From an uncultured Actinomycetota bacterium (GTDB taxonomy: Bacteria; Actinomycetota; Actinomycetes; Propionibacteriales; Nocardioidaceae): a stretch of 64,000 nt of DNA. The notes below the pieces were generated by a model. The model ran no database searches. It worked only from the letters and a program-made list of their open reading frames with translations, and had not been told where the DNA came from. The stretch covers positions 88,145 through 152,144 of the forward strand of contig CAVVHI010000006.1 in the NCBI GenBank assembly GCA_963747975.1. The letters run 5' to 3'. Position numbers and translations under genes: made by a program. Positions 5,814-61,759 of this stretch are shown piece after piece; position 1 is the first letter of the stretch; each line of letters opens with the position of its first letter.

Positions 5814-7146
5814 AGCCCACCTTCGCGTCGAGGGTGATCTCCACGGTGCTCCGGCTGCCGTCCCGGCGCACGACGAGCTCGATGGTCTCGCCCGGCTGGT
5901 GGCTGCGGATGGCCACGATCAGCTCGATCCCGTCGGCGACCGGCTTGCCGTCCACGGCGAGGACGACGTCGCCCTCGCGGAGGCCGGCGCGCTGCGCCGG
6001 GGTGCCCGACCCGACCGAGGCGATCTCCGCGCCGCCGCCCCCGCCGGTGCGCACCTCGGCGCCGATGACCGGGTACTTCGCCTCGCCGGTCCGCACGATC
6101 TGGGCCGCGGTCACCTTGACCTGCTCCATCGGGATCGCGAACCCGACCCCGATGTTGCCGCCGTTGCCGACGAACCCGCCCATCGTCGCGATCGCGGAGT
6201 TGACCCCGACGACCTCTCCGCGCAGGTTCACCAGCGGCCCGCCGGAGTTGCCCGGGTTGATCGCGGCGTCGGTCTGCACGGCGTTGATGTACGACGACTC
6301 GTCGGCGTCGCCGGTCGTCACCGGACGGTCGAGGGCGCTGATGATGCCGGAGGTGACCGTGCTGCTCAGGCCCAGCGGCGAGCCGATCGCGACGACGGTC
6401 TCGCCGACGTTCATCGACCGGGAGCTGCCGAGTGCCGCCGGCTGGAGGCCCTCCACCCCCTCGACGTCGAGGACCGCGATGTCGTAGGTGGCGCTGCGGC
6501 CCACGATCCGGGCCGGGTGCCGGCGGCCGGCGTGGTCGATGACCTGGATCCGGCCGTTCTCGGCGGCCCCCGAGACCACGTGGTTGTTGGTGATGACGTG
6601 GCCGCGCCGGTCCGCCACGAACCCGGACCCGGTCCCCTGGCCGGACCCGCCGCGGGTCACGATCTGGACGGTGCTGGGCAGCAGCGCCTCGGCCACCGCC
6701 GCCACCGAGCCGTTCTCGGGGTCCAGCGGCGCGGGCGCGCCCTCCCGGCCCTCGAAGACCGCGGCCTCCGACCCCGCCCGGTCGAGGGTGCCGGCCACGA
6801 GCGCGCCGCTCATCGCACCCCCGAGCAGGCCCACGACCAGCGCCGTCGCCGCGACGACCGGCCACACCCAGCCGGGGAGGCGGGAGCCGCGCTCCGGGGC
6901 GGGGGCGTACCAGCCCTGGCCGTAGTAGGCGCCGTGGCCGTAGGGGTCGTAGCCGTAGCCGCCGTGGCCGTGGGGGTCGTAGCCGTAGCCGCCGTCGTAG
7001 GCGTACGGGTCGTGCCCGTAGCCGCTGCCGGAGACGTCGTAGCCGTAGGGAGCGGTGTCGTCGGACCCGGACGCAGCCTGCTCCGCCCCGGTCGCCTCGT
7101 CGCGGTTCTCCGGGCGTGCTGGCTCGTTCTCGGTCACGCCAGCCAT
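5599..7146 (-). CDS. htrA: HtrA/DegP serine protease with TM helix and PDZ domain (C-terminus runs into tatB antisense)
   Basis: TNNHVV, DIAVL, QTDAAINPGNSGGPL catalytic motifs; PDZ GTPAQRAGLREGDVV. Confidence 0.92.
   Translation of the reverse strand: MAGVTENEPARPENRDEATGAEQAASGSDDTAPYGYDVSGSGYGHDPYAYDGGYGYDPHGHGGYGYDPYGHGAYYGQGWYAPAPERGSRLPGWVWPVVAATALVVGLLGGAMSGALVAGTLDRAGSEAAVFEGREGAPAPLDPENGSVAAVAEALLPSTVQIVTRGGSGQGTGSGFVADRRGHVITNNHVVSGAAENGRIQVIDHAGRRHPARIVGRSATYDIAVLDVEGVEGLQPAALGSSRSMNVGETVVAIGSPLGLSSTVTSGIISALDRPVTTGDADESSYINAVQTDAAINPGNSGGPLVNLRGEVVGVNSAIATMGGFVGNGGNIGVGFAIPMEQVKVTAAQIVRTGEAKYPVIGAEVRTGGGGGAEIASVGSGTPAQRAGLREGDVVLAVDGKPVADGIELIVAIRSHQPGETIELVVRRDGSRSTVEITLDAKVGFRSPRGRTADARRVRGDAARGGPARSRDARPPRPSPPGCACARSGGGRGRTARGRRTPARARCAGRYARTG
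6931..6990. repeat. 30-bp tandem repeat (2 copies, 1 mismatch) in htrA N-terminal coding region
   Basis: gccgtggccgt(a/g)ggggtcgtagccgtagcc twice; encodes Gly/Tyr/His/Asp-rich repeats. Confidence 0.85.
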
Positions 7147-23117: not shown

Positions 23118-24137
23118 GTGGCTCCCTCCTCCCCTCCCGGGCTCGGCCCGCACGTCGTCGGGCAGCGCGTGGTGGTGCGCCGCGTGCTGCCGGGGCAGGC
23201 CGGCCCGACCGGTGGCCCCGCGTTCACCGACGTGCTCGGCGTCCTGCGGAGCTGGGCCGGCGGGGTGGCCGTGGTGCAGCCCGCCGAGGGGCCGGCCGTC
23301 TCGATCGCCGTCGCCGACATCGTCTCCGGCAAGCCGGTCCCGCCGCGCCCGTCGGTGCGGATGCGGGTCTCGGCCGCCGACGCGGAGCGCCGGGCGCTGG
23401 CCGCGTGGCCGGCCCCGGAGACCGAGCGGCTCGGCGAGTGGGTGCTACGCGCGGCCGCGGGCTTCAGCGCACGAGCCAACTCCGTGCTCGCGGTCGGGTC
23501 GCCGCAGCTGCCGCTGGACGAGGCCGTGCAGCGGGTCTCGGGCTTCTACGCCGCCCGGGGGTTGCCGCCGCTGGTGCAGGTCGTGGTCGGCTCCGACGAG
23601 GACGCGGCCTTCGAGGGGCTGGGGTGGGTGACCGCCCGGCCGGGCGAGGACGACACGCTGTTCCAGGTGGCTTCGGTGTCCGCGGCGCGGCGCCTGGTAC
23701 GCCGGTCGCTGCCCGGCGTCGTACCGGCGACGCAGGTCAGTCCTCGGGTCGGCGACGGGTGGCTCGCCGACGACGAGAGGGCCCTGGCCTCGCGGGGACC
23801 GGCGACCGAGGTGCTGGAAGGCCCGGCCGAGGTCGGGTTCGTCTCCGTGCCCGGCCCCGACGGCGACGTCGTGGCGAAGGGCCGGGTCTCCCGCGGTGCG
23901 GGGGCCGTGCCCGGCGACGAGGACTGGGCCGGGATCAGCAACGTGTGGGTCTCCCCGCAGCGGCGGCGGCAGGGCCTGGGCACCGTGGTGATGGCCGCGC
24001 TGCTGGAGTGGGCCGCCGAGCGCGGTGCGACGACCGCGTTCCTGCAGGTGCGCGGGGACAACCCTGCCGCGATCGCGGCCTACGAGCGGCTCGGGTTCGT
24101 CACCCACCACGCCTACCGGTACCTCACCTCACCCTGA
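23118..24137 (+). CDS. GNAT family N-acetyltransferase (tandem)
   Basis: GFSARANS; QRRRQGLG; LQVRGDNPAAIAAYERLGF. Confidence 0.88.
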   Translation: MAPSSPPGLGPHVVGQRVVVRRVLPGQAGPTGGPAFTDVLGVLRSWAGGVAVVQPAEGPAVSIAVADIVSGKPVPPRPSVRMRVSAADAERRALAAWPAPETERLGEWVLRAAAGFSARANSVLAVGSPQLPLDEAVQRVSGFYAARGLPPLVQVVVGSDEDAAFEGLGWVTARPGEDDTLFQVASVSAARRLVRRSLPGVVPATQVSPRVGDGWLADDERALASRGPATEVLEGPAEVGFVSVPGPDGDVVAKGRVSRGAGAVPGDEDWAGISNVWVSPQRRRQGLGTVVMAALLEWAAERGATTAFLQVRGDNPAAIAAYERLGFVTHHAYRYLTSP

Positions 24138-38744: not shown

Positions 38745-39944
38745 ATGCAGCTCGACGTCGCACGGATCCGCTCCTCCTTCCCCGCCCTCCAGCTGGGAGT
38801 CGCCCACTTCGACGGTCCCGGTGGCACGCAGGTCCCCCGCGAGGTCGCCCGAGCCGTCGCGGACACCCTGACCTGCGGCATCGCCAACCGTGGCACGGTC
38901 ACCGACGCCGAACGTCGCGCGGAGGACGTGGTGGCCGCCGCCCGCTCGGCAGTGGCCGACCTCGTCGGCGGCACCCCGGACGGTGTGGTCTTCGCCCGGT
39001 CGATGACCCAGATGACCATGGACCTGTCCCGCGCACTCGCCGGCGGCTGGGGCCCCGGGGACGAGGTGGTGGTCACCCGCCTCGACCACGACGCCAACAT
39101 CCGACCGTGGCTGATCGCCGCCGAGCGGACCGGCGCCACCGTGCGGTGGGTCGATTTCGACGAGGACAGCGCCGAGCTGACCGTGGACCACGTCCGGGCC
39201 CAGCTCTCCGACCGCACCCGGCTGGTCGCGGTGACCGGCGCGTCGAACGTCCTGGGCACCCGCCCCGACATCCCGGCGATCGCGGAGGCGGTGCACGCGA
39301 CCGGAGCCCTGCTGCACGTCGACGGCGTGCACCTGACCCCGCACGCCCCGGTGGACGTGCGGGCCCTGGGCGCGGACTTCTACGCCTGCTCCCCCTACAA
39401 GTTCCTCGGACCCCACTGCGGCACGCTGGTCGCGGACCCGGACCTGCTGGCGAGCATCCACCCCGACAAGCTGCTGCCCTCGGCCGACACGGTGCCGGAG
39501 CGCTTCGAGCTCGGCACGCTGCCCTACGAGCTGATGGCGGGCACCGCCGCGGCGGTCGACTTCATCGCCGACGCCGCGTCGGACGCCGACGACCGTCGCA
39601 CCCGGGTGCTCGAGTCGATGGCCGCCGTCGAGGTGCACGAGACCGACCTGTTCTCACGGCTGCACGACGGGCTGGCGGGGATCGACCGGGTCGTGCTCCA
39701 CGGCTCCCCCGCGCACCACACGCCGACGGCCTTCTTCTCCGTGGACGGCATGGCGCCCGCCGAGGTGTACCGAGCCCTCGCCGAACGCGGGGTGAACGCA
39801 CCGGCGAGCCACTTCTACGCGATCGAGGCGGTCCGCCGGCTGGGGCTCGGCGACGCCGGTGCGGTCCGGGCGGGCATCTCGCTCTACACCGACCGTGACG
39901 ACGTCGACCGGCTGCTCACGGCACTGCAGGAGGTCGCACGATGA
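38745..39944 (+). CDS. Cysteine desulfurase-like PLP protein
   Basis: FDGPGGTQVP, LDHDANI.PW, ASNVLGT, VDGVH, CSPYKFLGPH, FELGTLPYE. Confidence 0.9.
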   Translation: MQLDVARIRSSFPALQLGVAHFDGPGGTQVPREVARAVADTLTCGIANRGTVTDAERRAEDVVAAARSAVADLVGGTPDGVVFARSMTQMTMDLSRALAGGWGPGDEVVVTRLDHDANIRPWLIAAERTGATVRWVDFDEDSAELTVDHVRAQLSDRTRLVAVTGASNVLGTRPDIPAIAEAVHATGALLHVDGVHLTPHAPVDVRALGADFYACSPYKFLGPHCGTLVADPDLLASIHPDKLLPSADTVPERFELGTLPYELMAGTAAAVDFIADAASDADDRRTRVLESMAAVEVHETDLFSRLHDGLAGIDRVVLHGSPAHHTPTAFFSVDGMAPAEVYRALAERGVNAPASHFYAIEAVRRLGLGDAGAVRAGISLYTDRDDVDRLLTALQEVAR

Positions 39945-52954: not shown

Positions 52955-53233
52955 ATGAGCAAGGGCAAACGCTGGCTCATCGTCGGAGTGGTGCTGCTCG
53001 TCGCAGGTCTCTTTCTCTACTTGATCTCCATGGCGCTGATACCCCAGGGCTACAGCGGGGATGAAGCACCAGCAGGTCCCCCCAACGAGATGCCAGCGGC
53101 CCCGGAACAGAGCGTTGTCGTCCCCATGATCGGTGCGATCAGCGGCCTGATTGGTGCCATGGCCGGACTCATCACGGCCGTCGCGGGACTGATCGCCGTC
53201 CTGCGGAAGAAGTCGGCTGTCTCCGCTGGCTAG
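52955..53233 (+). CDS. Small two-TM membrane protein
   Basis: MSKGKRWLIVGVVLLVAGLFLYLISMAL..MIGAISGLIGAMAGLITAVAGLIAVLRKK. Confidence 0.65.
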   Translation: MSKGKRWLIVGVVLLVAGLFLYLISMALIPQGYSGDEAPAGPPNEMPAAPEQSVVVPMIGAISGLIGAMAGLITAVAGLIAVLRKKSAVSAG

Positions 53234-53239
53234 CGGATC

Positions 53240-53615
53240 GGAGTAAGTCGCAGAGTCTGCCTTCGCCCTCGGGTCCTCTTGACCGTCGCGAGGGCGATCC
53301 CCCGTGGGTCGAGCGCGACCGCGTCGTGCGTTGCAGCGTTGTCGGCGGCAAACCACGTCGACGTCGCTAAGACGGATCGGTTGGCTGCCTCCTTCCTCCG
53401 CCACGCCGCTCGGAGTGGTCGGTCGTGAGATCGCTCGTCGAATAGCAGTCAGAACAATAGGGCTGGAGACGACGTGCCCGCTCGGACAACTTCCGCCAGC
53501 TCTGGTCGTACCCGCGAGCGGTCGCTGAGTGAGGGCTTCGGTGGCTCGGCAGGACGATACTCGGCGCATCGGGCCTGCTCGGAGGGCTCGCCGCACTCGG
53601 GGCAGACGCGGGCAC
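53240..53615 (-). pseudogene. Frameshifted phage-type HNH endonuclease
   Basis: Pieces in different frames: CPECG..RC; ARGYDQSWRKLS..QPYCSDC..DLTTDHS; IRLSDVDVVCRR..CNARRG. Confidence 0.7.
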
Positions 53616-53616
53616 C

Positions 53617-53653
53617 TGTCCCATCGGGGGTGTCCCATCTGTCCCGGTGTCCC
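53617..53653. repeat. TGTCCC(AT) x4 iteron-like cluster
   Basis: TGTCCC at 53617, 53631, 53640, 53648; three copies extend to TGTCCCAT. Confidence 0.7.
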
Positions 53654-53789
53654 ATTCGAGGGAGACCAGTCCGTCGGGCAATGGCCGCCGATTAGGCGGC
53701 TGATGCGATGAAGGAGCGGGGCCTCCGCTCCTCGCGCGTCCCCGGCGGATGCTGGGGGTGTACTCACGTCTACGACGAAGGAGGCCCTC

Positions 53790-54824
53790 ATGTCAGAGTA
53801 CGCAGGGCAGCAGTTCGTTGGTATCGATCTGCATCGTCGACGCAGTGTGCTGGTCCGGTCCACGGTCTCCGGGGAGGTCTTGGAGGCGACTCAGATCCTC
53901 AACGACGTCGACCGGCTCAACGCGGTGATGGCGCGGGCGGGTGAGACCCCCGAAGTCGTCCTCGAGGCGACCTATGGGTGGTACTGGGCGGTTGACGCGC
54001 TGCAGGCCGCGGGCGCCAGCGTTCACCTGGCGCATCCGCTGGGAGTGAAGGCGTTCGAGTATCGGCGGGTGAAGAACGACCTCCGTGACGCCACCGACCT
54101 GGCCGATCTGCTGCGGATGGGCCGGCTCCCGGAGTCGTGGATCGCGCCGCCGGCGACCCGGGAGCTGCGTGAGCTGGTCCGCCACCGCGCCAAGCTGGTC
54201 GGGCTGCGGTCCCACTGCAAGGCCGAGATCCACGCGGTGCTGGCCAAGTGCGGCGTCCAGGTGCTGATGAGTGACCTGTTCAGCCCGGCCGGTGAGCACC
54301 TTCTCGACCGTTGCGCCCTGCCCGGTGCGTACGCCGCGCGGGTCCACTCACTGCGTCGACTCATCGACGACCTCGAGGTGGGGATCGACCTGTTCGCGAG
54401 GCTGACCCGAGGCCGGCTGGCCGCCAACCCGGACTATGTCGCACTGCAGCAGCTGCCTGGTGTCGGCCCGGTCCTCGCCGCGGTGTTTCTCGCCGAGGTC
54501 GGCGACGTCACCCGGTTCGCCAGGGCGCCGCAGCTGGCGTGCTGGGCGGGGTTGACCCCCAAGCATCACGAGTCCGACACCCACGTGCACCGGGGCCGGA
54601 TCACCAAGCAGGGTTCTCGCCTGGTTCGGTGGGCGGCGGTGGAGTCGGTCAAGGCGCTGGGGCCCGCCTCGGTGGTCGGTGCCTACAAGAAGCAGGTTGC
54701 CGACCGGCGTGGCAAGAACATCGGCACCGTCGCCGCGGCCCGCAAACAGACCGAGTTCGTGTTCTATGCGTTGCGCGACCATCACGTCCGCGCTCTACAT
54801 CCGCCGCGGCGCACAGCGGCATGA
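53790..54824 (+). CDS. IS110 family DEDD recombinase/transposase
   Basis: AAGGAGG RBS; VGIDLH (D), VLEATYG (E), KNDLRDA (D..D); Tnp domain LPGVGP..GLTP..HESD (catalytic Ser) ..KQG. Confidence 0.95.
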   Translation: MSEYAGQQFVGIDLHRRRSVLVRSTVSGEVLEATQILNDVDRLNAVMARAGETPEVVLEATYGWYWAVDALQAAGASVHLAHPLGVKAFEYRRVKNDLRDATDLADLLRMGRLPESWIAPPATRELRELVRHRAKLVGLRSHCKAEIHAVLAKCGVQVLMSDLFSPAGEHLLDRCALPGAYAARVHSLRRLIDDLEVGIDLFARLTRGRLAANPDYVALQQLPGVGPVLAAVFLAEVGDVTRFARAPQLACWAGLTPKHHESDTHVHRGRITKQGSRLVRWAAVESVKALGPASVVGAYKKQVADRRGKNIGTVAAARKQTEFVFYALRDHHVRALHPPRRTAA

Positions 54825-55030
54825 GGCGCTCGCGCTCGACGCAGGGGTCGGCCGCGAGGCCGTGCAGGTCATGACCCCCAGCCCTCCTCATTGCGAGGGT
54901 CTCGGCGTGGTCGCGCTGTCTGATTGACCCCGACCGACCGTCGCCACGTTCTTCGGCGAACCCCATCATGCGGTCCGTTGGCGAGAAGCTTTCGCCGCCT
55001 CCGCCACGGCACCCGCGAAGGGATGACCGA
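54825..55030 (+). ncRNA. Candidate bridge/seekRNA guide domain
   Basis: GCAGGTCAT 54864-72 is the reverse complement of right flank 55315-23; GTCTGAT 54918-24 matches left flank GGCTGAT at 6/7; AGGGATG 55019-25 equals element end 55311-17; multiple hairpins. Confidence 0.65.
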
Positions 55031-55474
55031 GCGGCCGACTACCTGGGCCCGCTCCCCACCGCCGGCAACGGCAATGATGTGAGAACCGTCCCCTTGTCCG
55101 GCTCCACAGACAGGCTTTCCAGAACACACAGCCCCACTCCGACACCCGAACAGCGTGCGCCGAACGGGACCGGCGTCAAGGCCCTCCGGCCGCTGCGCGG
55201 TCGGGCTCCGCCCGAGCCTGGACCCCGGCTCCTTAGGTCGGCGCGCCTGGACACCGGGTCGGAGGCAGGAAAAAGGGCCGGCCAACACTCTTGACCGGCC
55301 CCGCTCCTTCAGGGATGACCTGCGGCGTTACACGTTGAAGCGGAATGAAAAACCGGAGGTTTCGGCTGTCGTTGGCCACCGCCGGTCGAGGCCGGAAAAT
55401 GCGGTCTGACCTGCGATAACGCGATCCCGGGACCGTTGGGCGTCGTCGGCGATCGTCGGCCTCGGCCGGACTTC

Positions 55475-55493
55475 TTGCGGACTATTTGCGGAC
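55475..55493 (+). repeat. TTGCGGAC direct repeat, 11-bp period (integrase arm-site-like)
   Basis: ttgcggac-tat-ttgcggac. Confidence 0.5.
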
Positions 55494-55495
55494 CG

Positions 55496-55813
55496 CTATG
55501 CATCCGCCCGCTCGGCGATGGTCGCTTCGATCCAGGCAGGGTTCCGGCGGATGCCGACGACAGCGAGCACGTCGATCCGGTCCTCGTCAACCAGGTAGAC
55601 GGCCATGTACGGGAACCGCTTGAGCAGCGCCCGACGGTACGACTCGAACAGGATGACCCCGGACTCGGGGAACATCTCGATGCGCTCGACCTGCTCGTCC
55701 AGCCGTGCTTCGAACCGACTCGGCAGCGTCGGGTCGAACCGCTCGTAGTGGTCATAGATCGCCGCGAGGTCGTCTTCCACTCCAGGGTGGAAGACGAGGG
55801 GCCGCCGAGTCAC
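55496..55813 (-). CDS. ParE/RelE family toxin
   Basis: LVFHP.VEDDL..IYDHY..RIEMFPESG..LKRFPY..Y..I.VLAV. Confidence 0.88.
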   Translation of the reverse strand: MTRRPLVFHPGVEDDLAAIYDHYERFDPTLPSRFEARLDEQVERIEMFPESGVILFESYRRALLKRFPYMAVYLVDEDRIDVLAVVGIRRNPAWIEATIAERADA

Positions 55814-56031
55814 GCCCTGCGCGCGGCAAGCCGAGCCTTGAGCTCATCCCAGGTCAGCCCGATCGACGGATCTCCCTGAAGCTCCGCCGCCCGAGACCGG
55901 ATGACCGACTTCTGCTCCTCGCTGACCTCGATCGGCTCGGACTCGACGGTGCTCTCGATGTACTCCACCAGCTCCAGGCGCTCATCGAGGCTCATGGCCT
56001 CGATGGCTGACTGCAGAGCGGGATTCACCAT
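55810..56031 (-). CDS. Addiction-module antitoxin
   Basis: MSLDERLELVEYI..IRSR..GDPS..LTWDELK; GTGA-coupled to toxin. Confidence 0.85.
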   Translation of the reverse strand: MVNPALQSAIEAMSLDERLELVEYIESTVESEPIEVSEEQKSVIRSRAAELQGDPSIGLTWDELKARLAARRA

Positions 56032-61605: not shown

Positions 61606-61759
61606 TCCATCGACAGGGGCAGCGACAGATCTGTCGCCCTTTGCGAAAGCGTGCGCTGACCTGCGCAAACATCTCCACGCGGCTTCTCGGCTCTTGCTCG
61701 ACCGTGACCTCGTGAGCGGCCTCGTGACTGGTGGCCTGACCCCGGGGGCAGCAGCGAAG

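What the first reader, a model, noticed from the sequence alone, without database searches (positions are those of the whole stretch)
53702..55317. IS1111-like IS110 element whose 3' non-coding region carries guides matching its own target and ends (bridge/seekRNA candidate)
Seen: a DEDD+Ser recombinase; a perfect 15-bp subterminal IR (53709-23 / 55297-311); GATG just outside both IRs, giving the empty site ggcggct-GATG-acctgcgg. In the NCR, GCAGGTCAT (54864-72) is the 9/9 reverse complement of ATGACCTGC at the right flank. GTCTGAT (54918-24) matches the left flank GGCTGAT at 6/7. AGGGATG (55019-25) is identical to the element's right end. CCATCAT (54963-69) is a 6/7 reverse complement of ATGAAGG at the left end. 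Known: IS110/IS1111 recombinases use an element-encoded RNA with separate target- and donor-pairing segments. Inference: this is a readable, potentially reprogrammable RNA-guided recombinase. The left core is ambiguous (GATG at 53702 or 53707).
Basis: partly seen in the sequence, partly recalled or inferred. Interest (0 to 1): 0.85.

Follow-up and report, generated by a model that had tools for sequence, protein, structure and literature searches.

The report
IS1111-type insertion sequence with guide RNA

Summary
The ORF at 53790-54824 is an IS110-family DEDD/Ser recombinase, which NCBIfam names "IS110 family RNA-guided transposase". It sits between perfect 15-bp subterminal inverted repeats.

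About 60 full-length relatives (62-88% protein identity) tested the guide idea:
- The segment at 54863-71 tracks the right flank across 26 distinct guide variants.
- The segment at 54918-23 tracks the last 1-3 bases of the left flank.
- AGGGATGA at 55019-26 tracks a G/A polymorphism in the right end in 60 of 61 elements.
- These segments lie in internal loops closed by stems with many compensatory changes, as in a bridge RNA.

CCATCAT as a left-end guide has no covariation, and the match is at chance level. The shared core is TGA (53701-03 and 55316-18), not GATG. The empty site is therefore ggcggC-TGA-CCTGCgg, the element is 53704-55315, and the predicted circle junction is CTTCAGGGA-TGA-TGCGATGAAGG.

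The RNA itself, the circle and transposition are inferred, not shown. This is a new member of a known kind, of moderate-to-low interest. Side finds: two relatives carry tandem arrays of alternative guide cassettes, and many insertion sites lie just 3' of tRNA genes.

The parts
53701..53703 (+). Left copy of the 3-bp core TGA. By the IS1111 convention it is counted with the element; the crossover lies within it.
   Evidence: TGA is the only block shared by the left and right junctions in 56 unique insertions. Unoccupied sites read Y|TGA|CCTGC.
53704..55315 (+). Body of the insertion sequence: 1612 bp, TGCGATGAAGG...CTTCAGGGA. The left non-coding end is 86 nt and the 3' non-coding region is 491 nt.
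   Evidence: Ends are conserved in about 60 relatives while the flanks differ.
53709..53723 (+). Left subterminal inverted repeat, TGAAGGAGCGGGGCC.
   Evidence: 15/15 complementary to 55297-311 (I6). Conserved across the family.
53777..53784 (+). Ribosome-binding site GAAGGAGG, 5 nt upstream of the ATG.
   Evidence: Read directly from the sequence.
53790..54824 (+). Recombinase gene (344 aa), DEDD/RuvC-like plus Ser domain, with D13, E59, D97, D100 and S262 in GLTPKHHESD.
   Evidence: Pfam PF01548 and PF02371. NCBIfam NF033542 'IS110 family RNA-guided transposase', 204.7 bits against a cut-off of 140. Alignment to IS621 and ISCro4 chains. Residue positions.
54845..54862 (+). Target-binding loop, outer stem, 5' strand.
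   Evidence: RNAalifold consensus. 10 of 14 pairs show changes on both sides.
54863..54871 (+). Right-target guide (g1), TGCAGGTCA. GCAGG+TCA is the reverse complement of the core TGA plus right flank CCTGC, so it would pair with the top strand.
   Evidence: In-register complementarity to flank positions +1 to +5 is 0.77-1.0 with the element's own flank, against 0.24-0.31 (0.72 at the nearly invariant +1) with other elements' flanks, among 26 distinct guides. Permutation test 0/10000.
54872..54913 (+). Inner stem of the target loop (54872-79 with 54904-13) and a variable apical hairpin (54880-903).
   Evidence: 8 pairs, 97.9% paired, 3 with changes on both sides. Coordinates.
54914..54924 (+). 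Left-target guide strand (g2), CGCTGTCTGAT. CTGA (54920-23) equals left-flank base C plus the core TGA in the same sense, so it would pair with the bottom strand.
   Evidence: Identity to the element's own left flank at -1/-2/-3 is 0.96/0.56/0.48, against 0.50/0.26/0.27 with other elements' flanks. Examples include L059 CCCCGTTGA, L047 CCATTGA and L057 GACTGA.
54925..54940 (+). Target-binding loop, outer stem, 3' strand.
54957..54969 (+). 5' strand of the donor loop (g3), CGAACCCCATCAT. CATCA (54964-68) is the reverse complement of the core TGA plus TG of the left end. Its guide status is unresolved.
   Evidence: Only C, A and T at the 3' end, plus three interspersed bases, are invariant. Complementarity to A|TGA|TG.G.T is patchy and shows no covariation.
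54970..55016 (+). Inner stem of the donor loop (54970-74 with 55011-16) and a variable apical hairpin.
   Evidence: 5 pairs, 95.8% paired, 3 with compensatory changes, e.g. GCCACC/GGTGGC and GCCCAG/CTGGGC.
55017..55028 (+). Right-end donor guide strand (g4), GAAGGGATGACC. AGGGA+TGA (55019-26) equals the last 5 nt of the element plus the core in the same sense.
   Evidence: It tracks the right-end variant AGG[G/A]A in 60/61 elements. AGGAA occurs in 4 separate clades of the recombinase tree. The final CC does not covary with flanks.
55029..55054 (+). Hairpin directly after the donor loop (GAGCGG...CCGCTC). Its sequence changes but the pairing is kept in relatives (GGCAG/CTGCC, GACAG/CTGTC).
   Evidence: Alignment.
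55171..55227 (+). Conserved structured domain in the distal non-coding region. Function unknown.
   Evidence: Local RNAalifold run with compensatory pairs, e.g. CG 32/AU 14 and GC 25/CG 21. Coordinates.
55291..55296 (+). -35-like TTGACC pointing out of the right end. With a 17-nt spacer it meets GATGAT only when the right end is joined to the left end through TGA.
   Evidence: The promoter criteria are met by the TGA-register circle junction only. They are not met by the GATG register or by the integrated junction. No promoter-like site is found in the linear element.
55297..55311 (+). Right subterminal inverted repeat.
55316..55323 (+). Right copy of the core TGA plus right target CCTGC. This is host DNA.
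55406..55414 (+). Unoccupied copy of the preferred site, C|TGA|CCTGC, 88 bp downstream of the element.

Best explanation
**What it is.** An intact IS1111-group member of the IS110 family, 1612 bp at 53704-55315. It is inserted in one orientation at ...ggcggC|TGA|CCTGCgg..., and a copy of the 3-bp core TGA lies on each side.

**Parts.** It encodes a DEDD/Ser recombinase. Directly downstream, on the same strand, it encodes a roughly 185-210-nt structured RNA (about 54845-55028, possibly to 55054) of the seekRNA/bridge-RNA type.

**Target loop.** The first internal loop carries two strands.
- GCAGG-TCA on its 5' strand pairs with the top strand of core plus right target.
- C-TGA on its 3' strand pairs with the bottom strand of left target plus core.
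- Together they specify about N-Y-TGA-CCTGC-(G), i.e. 9-11 bp.

**Donor loop.** The second internal loop carries AGGGA-TGA on its 3' strand, which reads the right end plus core of the element. Its 5' strand keeps only the complement of the core (CA/TCA) with patchy complementarity to the left end. The left end may therefore be read mainly by the protein through the 15-bp subterminal repeat.

**Proposed cycle.** The element excises as a circle whose junction is CTTCAGGGA-TGA-TGCGATGAAGG. That junction assembles a promoter, TTGACC-17 nt-GATGAT, which drives the recombinase and the RNA. The RNA-protein complex pairs the circle junction with a matching target and exchanges strands within TGA.

**Shown here.** Family membership, element ends, target sequence, RNA secondary structure by covariation, and co-variation of three guide strands with their DNA partners.

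**Inferred from characterised relatives (ISEc11, ISPa11, ISKpn4, IS621).** That the region is made as RNA and bound by the recombinase, that the circle forms, that the junction promoter works, and that the system can be reprogrammed.
For: **Protein.**
- Pfam domains of the IS110 family.
- NCBIfam equivalog 'IS110 family RNA-guided transposase', above its cut-off.
- Alignment to IS621 and ISCro4 with the catalytic residues conserved.

**Ends.**
- Perfect 15-bp subterminal inverted repeat.
- The same ends in about 60 relatives inserted at 56 different sites.

**Core is TGA.**
- 42 unoccupied YTGACCTGC sites outside the recombinase gene in 495 kb, many with the same extended context as the insertion flanks. 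There are no YTGATGACCTGC sites.
- In L049 an unoccupied site lies 13 nt 3' of a tRNA gene; in L019 an occupied one lies 14 nt 3' of a tRNA gene.
- L038 shows an insertion into T|TGA|CCGG inside a right end.
- L105 holds a right-end remnant, then TGA, then a left end.
- A related unoccupied site in run X1 reads ATTAGGCGGT|TGACCTGCGG.
- The junction promoter forms only in this register.

**Guides.**
- Permutation tests give 0/10000 for both target guides.
- Per-position profiles.
- Named examples: L055 atacg with GTATG, L068 gcaca with TGTGC, L079 agtgc with GCACT.
- The right-end guide matches in 60/61 elements, across 4 separate clades carrying the variant.

**Structure.**
- RNAalifold places both target guides on opposite strands of one internal loop.
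- 94.2% of cells are paired, against 24-44% when partners are slid.
- 16 pairs have changes on both sides.
- The covariation score is 0.321, against at most 0.066 in controls.
- Two pairs that are G-U in 47 of 48 sequences are standard pairs only in RNA read from the + strand.

**Agreement with published work.**
- The guide order (top-strand match 5' of bottom-strand match) and the non-coding region lying downstream of the gene match published IS1111 seekRNAs (PMC11187229).
- Durrant et al. predicted bridge RNAs in the right end of 93% of IS1111 elements (PMC11208160).
Against: - No RNA data exist for this element: no RNA run holds it.
- Rfam 15 has no matching family; the best hits are noise.
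- The single-sequence fold is not better than shuffles (z = -1.05) and does not reproduce the consensus structure.
- No orthologous empty site and no true circle junction was recovered. The window's flanking protein and its recombinase are not on record. The first metagenome pattern search found nothing. The X1 contig is only a related site: its left part did not lay on the window even at 80% identity.
- The left-target guide matches only C+TGA in this copy, with a mismatch at -2.
- The 5' strand of the donor loop does not covary with left-end variants.
- A few relatives sit at sites that do not match their guides (L076, L046, L057, L081).
Confidence: 0.85

Rival explanations
1. Only the target is read by RNA. 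Both ends of the element are recognised by the recombinase protein through the subterminal inverted repeats, as in the working model of the seekRNA paper. On this view the 'donor loop' segments (54957-69 and 55017-28) are scaffold or protein-binding RNA rather than guides.
For: - The 5' donor strand shows no covariation with left-end variants.
- For ISEc11, an 82-nt short seekRNA carrying only the target matches was sufficient for transposition (PMC11187229).
- The family has long, conserved subterminal repeats.
- A 2026 review still draws the transposase as recognising the IS ends.
Against: - AGG[G/A]A-TGA in the RNA follows the right-end polymorphism in 60/61 elements, and the variant occurs in 4 separate clades. 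This is hard to explain for a pure scaffold.
- The segment occupies the position equivalent to the left-target guide in a second internal loop whose stem covaries.
- Durrant et al. report donor complementarity in IS1111 examples.
Confidence: 0.15
2. The internal matches are footprints, not guides. They would be remnants of earlier junctions, from nested or tandem insertions of the same element, that became fixed inside the non-coding region. The resemblance to the present flanks would arise because the element always lands in the same site.
For: - Relatives do carry right-end remnants next to full copies (L038; L105).
- AGGGATGACC is an exact 10-nt copy of the right junction.
Against: - The right-target segment is in reverse-complement orientation and changes in step with 26 different target variants. 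A fossil would not do this.
- The segments lie at fixed positions in loops framed by stems with compensatory changes.
- The last two bases (CC) of the 10-mer stay constant when the flank differs.
Confidence: 0.03
3. The guide segments act as single-stranded DNA of the element itself, in the manner of the IS200/IS605 family where transposon DNA pairs with target DNA. They would not act as a transcribed RNA.
For: Sequence analysis alone cannot tell an RNA strand from a DNA strand of the same sequence. No transcript data are available.
Against: - The recombinase belongs to the family in which RNA binding has been shown biochemically and structurally (IS621 and ISCro4; PMC11187229; PMC11208160).
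- Two consensus pairs are G-U in 47 of 48 sequences.
- The structure is strand-specific and co-oriented with the gene.
Confidence: 0.03

Closest known systems
ISEc11, ISPa11, ISKpn4 and ISPst6 (IS1111 group) with their seekRNAs (Siddiquee et al. 2024, PMC11187229)
   Same: - DEDD/Ser transposase of 330-350 aa.
- Subterminal inverted repeats with short terminal extensions.
- Long non-coding region downstream of the gene.
- Two short target matches that overlap at the insertion point, with the top-strand match 5' of the bottom-strand match.
- Natural retargeting between relatives by changing only the guide bases.
- A -35 box in the right end that forms a junction promoter in the circle.
   Different: - Different phylum (Actinomycetota, G+C about 70%) and a different target, Y|TGA|CCTGC.
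- The extensions outside the repeats are 5 nt on the left (8 with the core) and 4 nt on the right, against the 7 and 3 I recall for IS4321/IS5075 and ISEc11. The paper as read here states only the 7-bp left extension.
- The Ser motif reads SD, not SG/TG.
- The non-coding region is much longer (491 nt) and has an extra conserved structured domain.
- A right-end-matching guide is evident here, whereas that paper described only target matches.
- Nothing has been tested experimentally for this element.
IS621 and ISCro4 bridge RNA systems (IS110 group; Durrant et al. 2024, PMC11208160; PDB 8wt6 and 9t56)
   Same: - Homologous recombinase; the catalytic-domain and Ser-domain stretches align.
- An RNA with two internal loops, each with one strand complementary to the top strand and one to the bottom strand of its DNA partner.
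- A short core common to target and donor.
   Different: - Here the RNA lies in the right end downstream of the gene, not in the left end upstream.
- The order of the strand matches is reversed.
- The core is 3 nt (TGA), against what I recall as a 2-nt CT core in IS621.
- The subterminal repeats are long (15 bp against 2-3 bp).
- One donor strand is not convincingly a guide.
- Protein similarity is low (E about 1e-13, partial).
'IS110 family transposase' genes on Rhodococcus plasmids, e.g. R. pyridinivorans 5Ap pSID, WP_193904280.1
   Same: - 61-63% identical recombinase.
- The same ends (T|TGA|TGCGATGAAGGGGCGGGG ... CCCCGCCCCTTCAGGGA|TGA).
- The same RNA layout.
   Different: - Different guide sequences.
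- That copy sits at a site matching its guide only partly.
- It is annotated only as a transposase gene; no RNA or ends are annotated.

Membership tests
IS110 family, IS1111 group (insertion sequences) | Transposase with an N-terminal DEDD (RuvC-like) domain and a C-terminal PF02371 domain carrying the conserved Ser | tested here: met
   - PF01548 (E 8e-20) and PF02371 (E 1e-21).
- NF033542 at 204.7 bits against a cut-off of 140.
- D13, E59, D97, D100 and S262.
- The motif is GLTPKHHES-D, where the published consensus is GL-P----S(t)G.
IS110 family, IS1111 group (insertion sequences) | Subterminal inverted repeats of 7-17 bp with a few extra bases outside them | tested here: met
   Perfect 15-bp repeat at 53709-23 and 55297-311. 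Extensions are TGCGA on the left and GGGA on the right.
IS110 family, IS1111 group (insertion sequences) | The longer non-coding region lies downstream of the transposase gene | tested here: met
   86 nt upstream and 491 nt downstream.
IS110 family, IS1111 group (insertion sequences) | Sequence-specific, orientation-specific insertion without a conventional target duplication; a short core is shared by both junctions | tested here: met
   56 unique insertions all lie at Y|TGA|N... in one orientation relative to the guides. Unoccupied sites contain a single TGA.
IS110 family, IS1111 group (insertion sequences) | Placement of the transposase inside the IS1111 clade of a reference (ISfinder) phylogeny | not tested
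   No ISfinder reference set was available. Assignment to the group rests on the repeats and the position of the non-coding region.
IS110 family, IS1111 group (insertion sequences) | A circular intermediate with abutted ends that creates a promoter | not testable with these tools
   The predicted junction TTGACC-17 nt-GATGAT meets the consensus criteria only in the TGA register. One metagenome contig has a right-end remnant, TGA and a left end, but it is not a circle.
seekRNA / bridge RNA | [quoted passage not shown] | tested here: met
   Structure. Guide-flank covariation. Both strands include the core (TCA and TGA).
seekRNA / bridge RNA | IS1111-type order: the top-strand match lies 5' of the bottom-strand match | tested here: met
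   54863-71 (complement of the top strand) precedes 54918-23 (same sense as the top strand).
seekRNA / bridge RNA | A second loop whose strands match the donor, i.e. the two ends of the element | tested here: inconclusive
   The right-end strand is met (60/61 elements). The left-end strand has only the core complement invariant and shows no covariation.
seekRNA / bridge RNA | The RNA is transcribed from the non-coding region, binds the recombinase and is required for transposition | not testable with these tools
   No RNA runs hold the sequence.
seekRNA / bridge RNA | Match to a curated RNA family model | tested here: not met
   An Rfam 15 scan of 53000-56000 at E up to 10 gave only noise hits, all far below their gathering scores. 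I did not establish whether Rfam holds a model for IS1111-type RNAs.

The most novel reading that the evidence does not exclude
This actinobacterial clade may use a variant of the IS1111 mechanism with two unusual features.

1. Donor recognition may be asymmetric. The right end is read by RNA, while the left end is read mainly by the protein through the subterminal repeat.

2. The target loop may be modular enough to be multiplexed. Two relatives carry tandem arrays of the 5' half of the target loop (outer-stem strand, 7-nt guide, inner-stem strand) in front of a single 3' half.
- L052 has three such 39-nt cassettes and L063 has two, and each cassette has a different guide.
- In L052 the first cassette matches its own flank. 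The third cassette matches the flank used by L063.
- Alternative folding could let one element address several targets.

The window's own element has a single cassette.
Probability: 0.25. Interest if true: 0.55.

Novelty: new member of a known kind. Interest (0 to 1): 0.3.

Why it matters
RNA-guided IS110/IS1111 recombinases are being developed as programmable tools for inserting DNA. This finding adds no new principle.

What it does provide is a well-resolved natural series: about 60 elements and 26 different guide variants from high-G+C Actinomycetota.
- The rules can be read directly from it: a 3-bp core, 5-6 guide bases on the right and 1-3 on the left, and a 5+3-base right-end guide.
- Cultured relatives on Rhodococcus plasmids make these rules testable.

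It also shows that boundaries of such elements guessed from short repeats can be off by a few bases. That would make a predicted circle-junction PCR product or a designed target wrong.

The cassette arrays in two relatives, and the preference for sites just 3' of tRNA genes, are the parts a specialist might follow up.

Tried and rejected
- **Rfam scan of the region.** Only noise.
- **Single-sequence folding.** Not better than shuffles and not like the consensus structure, so comparative structure was used instead.
- **Brute-force scan for covarying helices.** Far too many spurious helices in this G+C-rich alignment. Abandoned in favour of the controlled pair count.
- **Search for the empty site in metagenome contigs with the window's own flanks.** 0 hits.
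- **Exact-protein look-ups of the flanking ParE-like gene and of the recombinase.** Not on record.
- **Laying contigs at 80% identity to obtain a joint across the element.** No such joint. The X1 contig is a related site, not a strict orthologue.
- **Metagenome search for the abutted-ends junction.** 27 hits, of which 26 are chance matches without IS context and one (L105) is relevant.
- **RNA-seq look-ups.** None for the window.
- **Register hypotheses considered and rejected.** Both predict a target containing TGATGA. That sequence is never seen unoccupied, and both fail the L038 and junction-promoter checks.
- **Reading the 10-nt repeat AGGGATGACC as a 10-nt guide.** Rejected, because the last two bases do not follow the flank in relatives.
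Full report
**1. Checking the observation**

- The ORF at 53790-54824 (344 aa) carries the two Pfam domains of IS110-family transposases.
- It scores above the curated cut-off of the NCBIfam model named 'IS110 family RNA-guided transposase'.
- It aligns with the solved IS621 and ISCro4 recombinases. D13, E59, D97, D100 and S262 (in GLTPKHHESD) occupy the catalytic positions.
- The 15-bp inverted repeat at 53709-23 and 55297-311 is perfect and unique in the window.

Shuffling the non-coding region gives these chance levels:
- The 9/9 reverse-complement match (54864-72 against the right junction): P about 0.001.
- The direct repeat of the right junction, which is actually 10 nt (AGGGATGACC, 55019-28 and 55311-20): P about 0.001.
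- The two 6/7 matches (GTCTGAT and CCATCAT): each expected by chance, P about 0.3-0.4.

**2. Relatives and element ends**

A scan of one genome per species returned 80 loci encoding recombinases 62-88% identical. All but a few were labelled Actinomycetota, many from soil and sediment metagenome bins. About 60 are full-length elements with the same ends:
- Left: ...Y-TGA-TG[C/T][G/C]A-TGAAGGAGCGGGGCC.
- Right: GGCCCCGCTCCTTCA-GG[G/A]A-TGA-[C/G]...

The DNA outside these ends differs from locus to locus. Contigs from several public metagenomes also show close copies with other flanks. The element family is therefore mobile, and its ends are well defined to within the short block common to both junctions.

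**3. Where exactly are the borders?**

The junctions also share TGA in another register: left C|TGA|TGCGA, right GGGA|TGA|CC. Five observations favour TGA.
- **Unoccupied sites.** In the 495 kb of window plus loci there are 42 unoccupied YTGACCTGC sites outside the recombinase gene, against about 9 expected from composition by my own rough estimate. Many have the same extended context as the insertion flanks (...gcctCTGACCTGCggaaacg...). YTGATGACCTGC never occurs.
- **Matched tRNA contexts.** In L049 an unoccupied site lies 13 nt after a tRNA-Val gene. In L019 an occupied site with the same right-hand sequence lies 14 nt after a tRNA-Pro gene.
- **L038.** The element is followed by TGA|CCGGCCCCTCTCCTTCAGGAA|TGA|CCTGCGG. 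This is an insertion into the T|TGA|CCGG of another copy's right end, a site that contains TGA but no ATG.
- **Abutted ends.** A metagenome-wide search for abutted ends allowing 0-3 spacer bases gave a single hit with IS context. It is a right-end remnant followed by TGA and a full left end...CCTTCAGGGA-TGA-TGCGATGAAGG... (L105). It is a remnant next to a full copy, not a circle.
- **Junction promoter.** Joining right end to left end through TGA creates TTGACC-17 nt-GATGAT, which meets the promoter-scan criteria. The GATG register and the integrated junction do not, and the linear element has no promoter-like site.

In addition, a contig in run X1 has ATTAGGCGGT directly followed by TGACCTGCGGCG.... 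Its left part is too diverged to be a strict orthologue.

I conclude, with about 85% confidence:
- The element is 53704-55315 (1612 bp).
- The core TGA lies at 53701-03 and 55316-18.
- The empty site is ggcggC-TGA-CCTGCgg.

**4. The RNA structure**

An alignment of the first part of the 3' non-coding region from 48 elements gives a consensus fold. A 14-pair outer stem and an 8-pair inner stem enclose an internal loop.
- In the window the 5' strand of the loop is TGCAGGTCA (54863-71).
- The 3' strand of the loop is CGCTGTCTGAT (54914-24).

A second loop follows. Its inner stem is GCGG(T).../...(A)CCCGC.

The controlled pair count gives:
- 94.2% of cells paired, against 24-44% when partners are slid.
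- 16 of 27 pairs with changes on both sides.
- A covariation score of 0.321, against at most 0.066 in controls, and 0/500 shuffles reaching the observed values.
- Two pairs that are G-U in 47 of 48 sequences are standard pairs only in RNA read from the + strand.

**5. Do the loop strands track the DNA?**

- **Right-target strand.** Using the TGA register, the 5' strand of loop 1 is complementary to the right flank at positions +1 to +5. Among 26 distinct guide variants, the match to the element's own flank is 0.77-1.0, against 0.24-0.31 (0.72 at the nearly invariant +1) to other elements' flanks. Position +6 is marginal and there is nothing beyond it.
- **Examples.** Flank CATAC with guide GTATG (L055), CGCAC with GTGCG (L068), CAGTG with CACTG (L079), GCTGC with GCAGC (L033).
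- **Left-target strand.** The 3' strand equals the left flank at -1, -2 and -3: 0.96/0.56/0.48 against 0.50/0.26/0.27.
- **Permutations.** Permuting flanks among 52 unique sites never reached the observed scores (0/10000 for both).
- **Right-end strand.** In loop 2 the 3' strand reads AAGG[G/A]A-TGA and follows the right-end variant CAGG[G/A]A-TGA in 60 of 61 elements. The A variant occurs in 4 separate clades of the recombinase tree.
- **The final CC.** The last two bases of the window's 10-nt repeat stay constant when the flank differs, so the effective match is 8 nt (55019-26).
- **Left-end strand.** The 5' strand of loop 2 (54957-69) keeps C-A-T at its 3' end and three interspersed bases. 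In the TGA register it is partly complementary to A|TGA|TG.G.T of the circle junction; in the window CATCA is the complement of TGATG. It does not change when the left end changes (CGA/TCA/TGA, or TGAAGG/TGTAGG).

Whether this strand is a weak left-end guide or scaffold remains open.

**6. Most likely mechanism**

The anatomy is that of an IS1111-type seekRNA/bridge RNA. It has:
- a target loop reading about Y-TGA-CCTGC(G);
- a donor loop reading at least the right end plus core;
- a recombinase of the RNA-guided family;
- a right-end -35 box that becomes a promoter only in the circle.

The order of the matches (top-strand match first) and the downstream location are the published IS1111 arrangement (PMC11187229). 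Durrant et al. had already predicted bridge RNAs in the right end of 93% of IS1111 elements (PMC11208160).

Transcription, protein binding, circle formation and reprogrammability are inferred from those studies. No RNA data exist for this element.

Three rivals are listed with their tests: protein-only recognition of the ends, fossil junction footprints, and DNA-strand guides. Covariation argues strongly against the last two.

**7. Context**

- The element lies in an intergenic stretch next to a ParE-toxin/antitoxin pair (55496-56031). Ordinary chromosomal genes lie around it: a sulfotransferase, a SpoIIE-type phosphatase, a luciferase-like monooxygenase and a short-chain dehydrogenase.
- The window matches contigs of freshwater-sediment and soil metagenomes.
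- The closest annotated relatives are 'IS110 family transposase' genes on Rhodococcus plasmids at about 62% identity, with the same ends and RNA layout.

**8. Verdict**

Its main interpretation is right. Its borders, empty site and circle junction are off by 3 nt, and one of the four proposed guide matches is not supported.

This is a new member of a known kind. Standard annotation already names the protein an RNA-guided transposase. Interest is moderate to low.

The points worth a specialist's attention lie in the relatives: tandem arrays of alternative guide cassettes in L052 and L063, and frequent insertion just 3' of tRNA genes.

Noticed in passing
L052:4031-4135 and L063:3482-3549: Two relatives carry tandem copies of the 5' half of the target loop (outer-stem strand, 7-nt guide, TCTGACC), each with a different guide, ahead of a single 3' half. 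L052 has three 39-nt-spaced cassettes: CTCTCTG, CTTTGTG and TTTGTTG. L063 has two: TTTTGTG and TTTGTTG. L052's first cassette matches its own right flank (TGA|CAGAGAG). Its third equals the cassette that matches L063's flank (TGA|CAACAAA). This may be a natural multi-target guide array.
   Followed up: partly
L012, L014, L017, L018, L019, L020 and L054 (occupied); L049:6760-6768 (unoccupied): Six of these insertions (L012, L014, L018, L019, L020, L054) lie about 2-17 nt beyond the 3' end of a tRNA gene, in either orientation. In L017 two tRNA genes end roughly 100 nt upstream. Several other flanks hold tRNA 3'-end-like fragments that ARAGORN does not call. The common target often sits in one arm of a hairpin, e.g. 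GGCTCTGAcctgcggaaacgcggaTCAGAGCC in L019. The family may favour hairpins downstream of tRNA genes.
   Followed up: partly
window 55406-55414; also 38868-38876, 61656-61664, 6116-6124 (+) and 23732-23740 (-): These are unoccupied copies of the preferred 9-bp site YTGACCTGC. One lies only 88 bp downstream of the element, inside a locally repeated stretch (55368-96 resembles 55442-70). A variant lacking 117 nt (55352-55468) is present in run X1.
   Followed up: partly
window 55171-55227: A third conserved, structured domain lies in the distal 3' non-coding region (GTCAAGG...CCTTGAC enclosing two small hairpins). It shows compensatory changes across the family. It lies outside the two guide loops and has no obvious role.
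   Followed up: partly
L038 right flank; L105 (reverse strand) 340-377: Right-end remnants lie next to full copies. In L038 the element is followed by the last 21 nt of a right end, as if it had inserted into the T|TGA|CCGG of the -35 box of another copy. In L105 a 22-nt right-end-like remnant plus TGA directly precedes a full left end.
   Followed up: partly
window 55274-55302, minus strand: There is a terminator-like hairpin followed by a T-run on the strand opposite to the gene. It overlaps the -35 box and the right inverted repeat and would stop transcription entering the element from the right. The hairpin is present only in the window's closest relatives; the A-rich tract is conserved more widely.
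   Followed up: no
window 53790-54824, residues 204-265: This stretch gives a weak hit, below the cut-off (E 2e-5; 24 bits against a cut-off of 100), to the NCBIfam model for the TIGR-Tas RNA-guided endonuclease.
   Followed up: no
L076, L046, L057, L043 and L081 (Rhodococcus pSID): A minority of copies sit at sites that match their own right-target guide poorly (3-6 of 8). They may be off-target insertions, later rearrangements or decayed copies.
   Followed up: no
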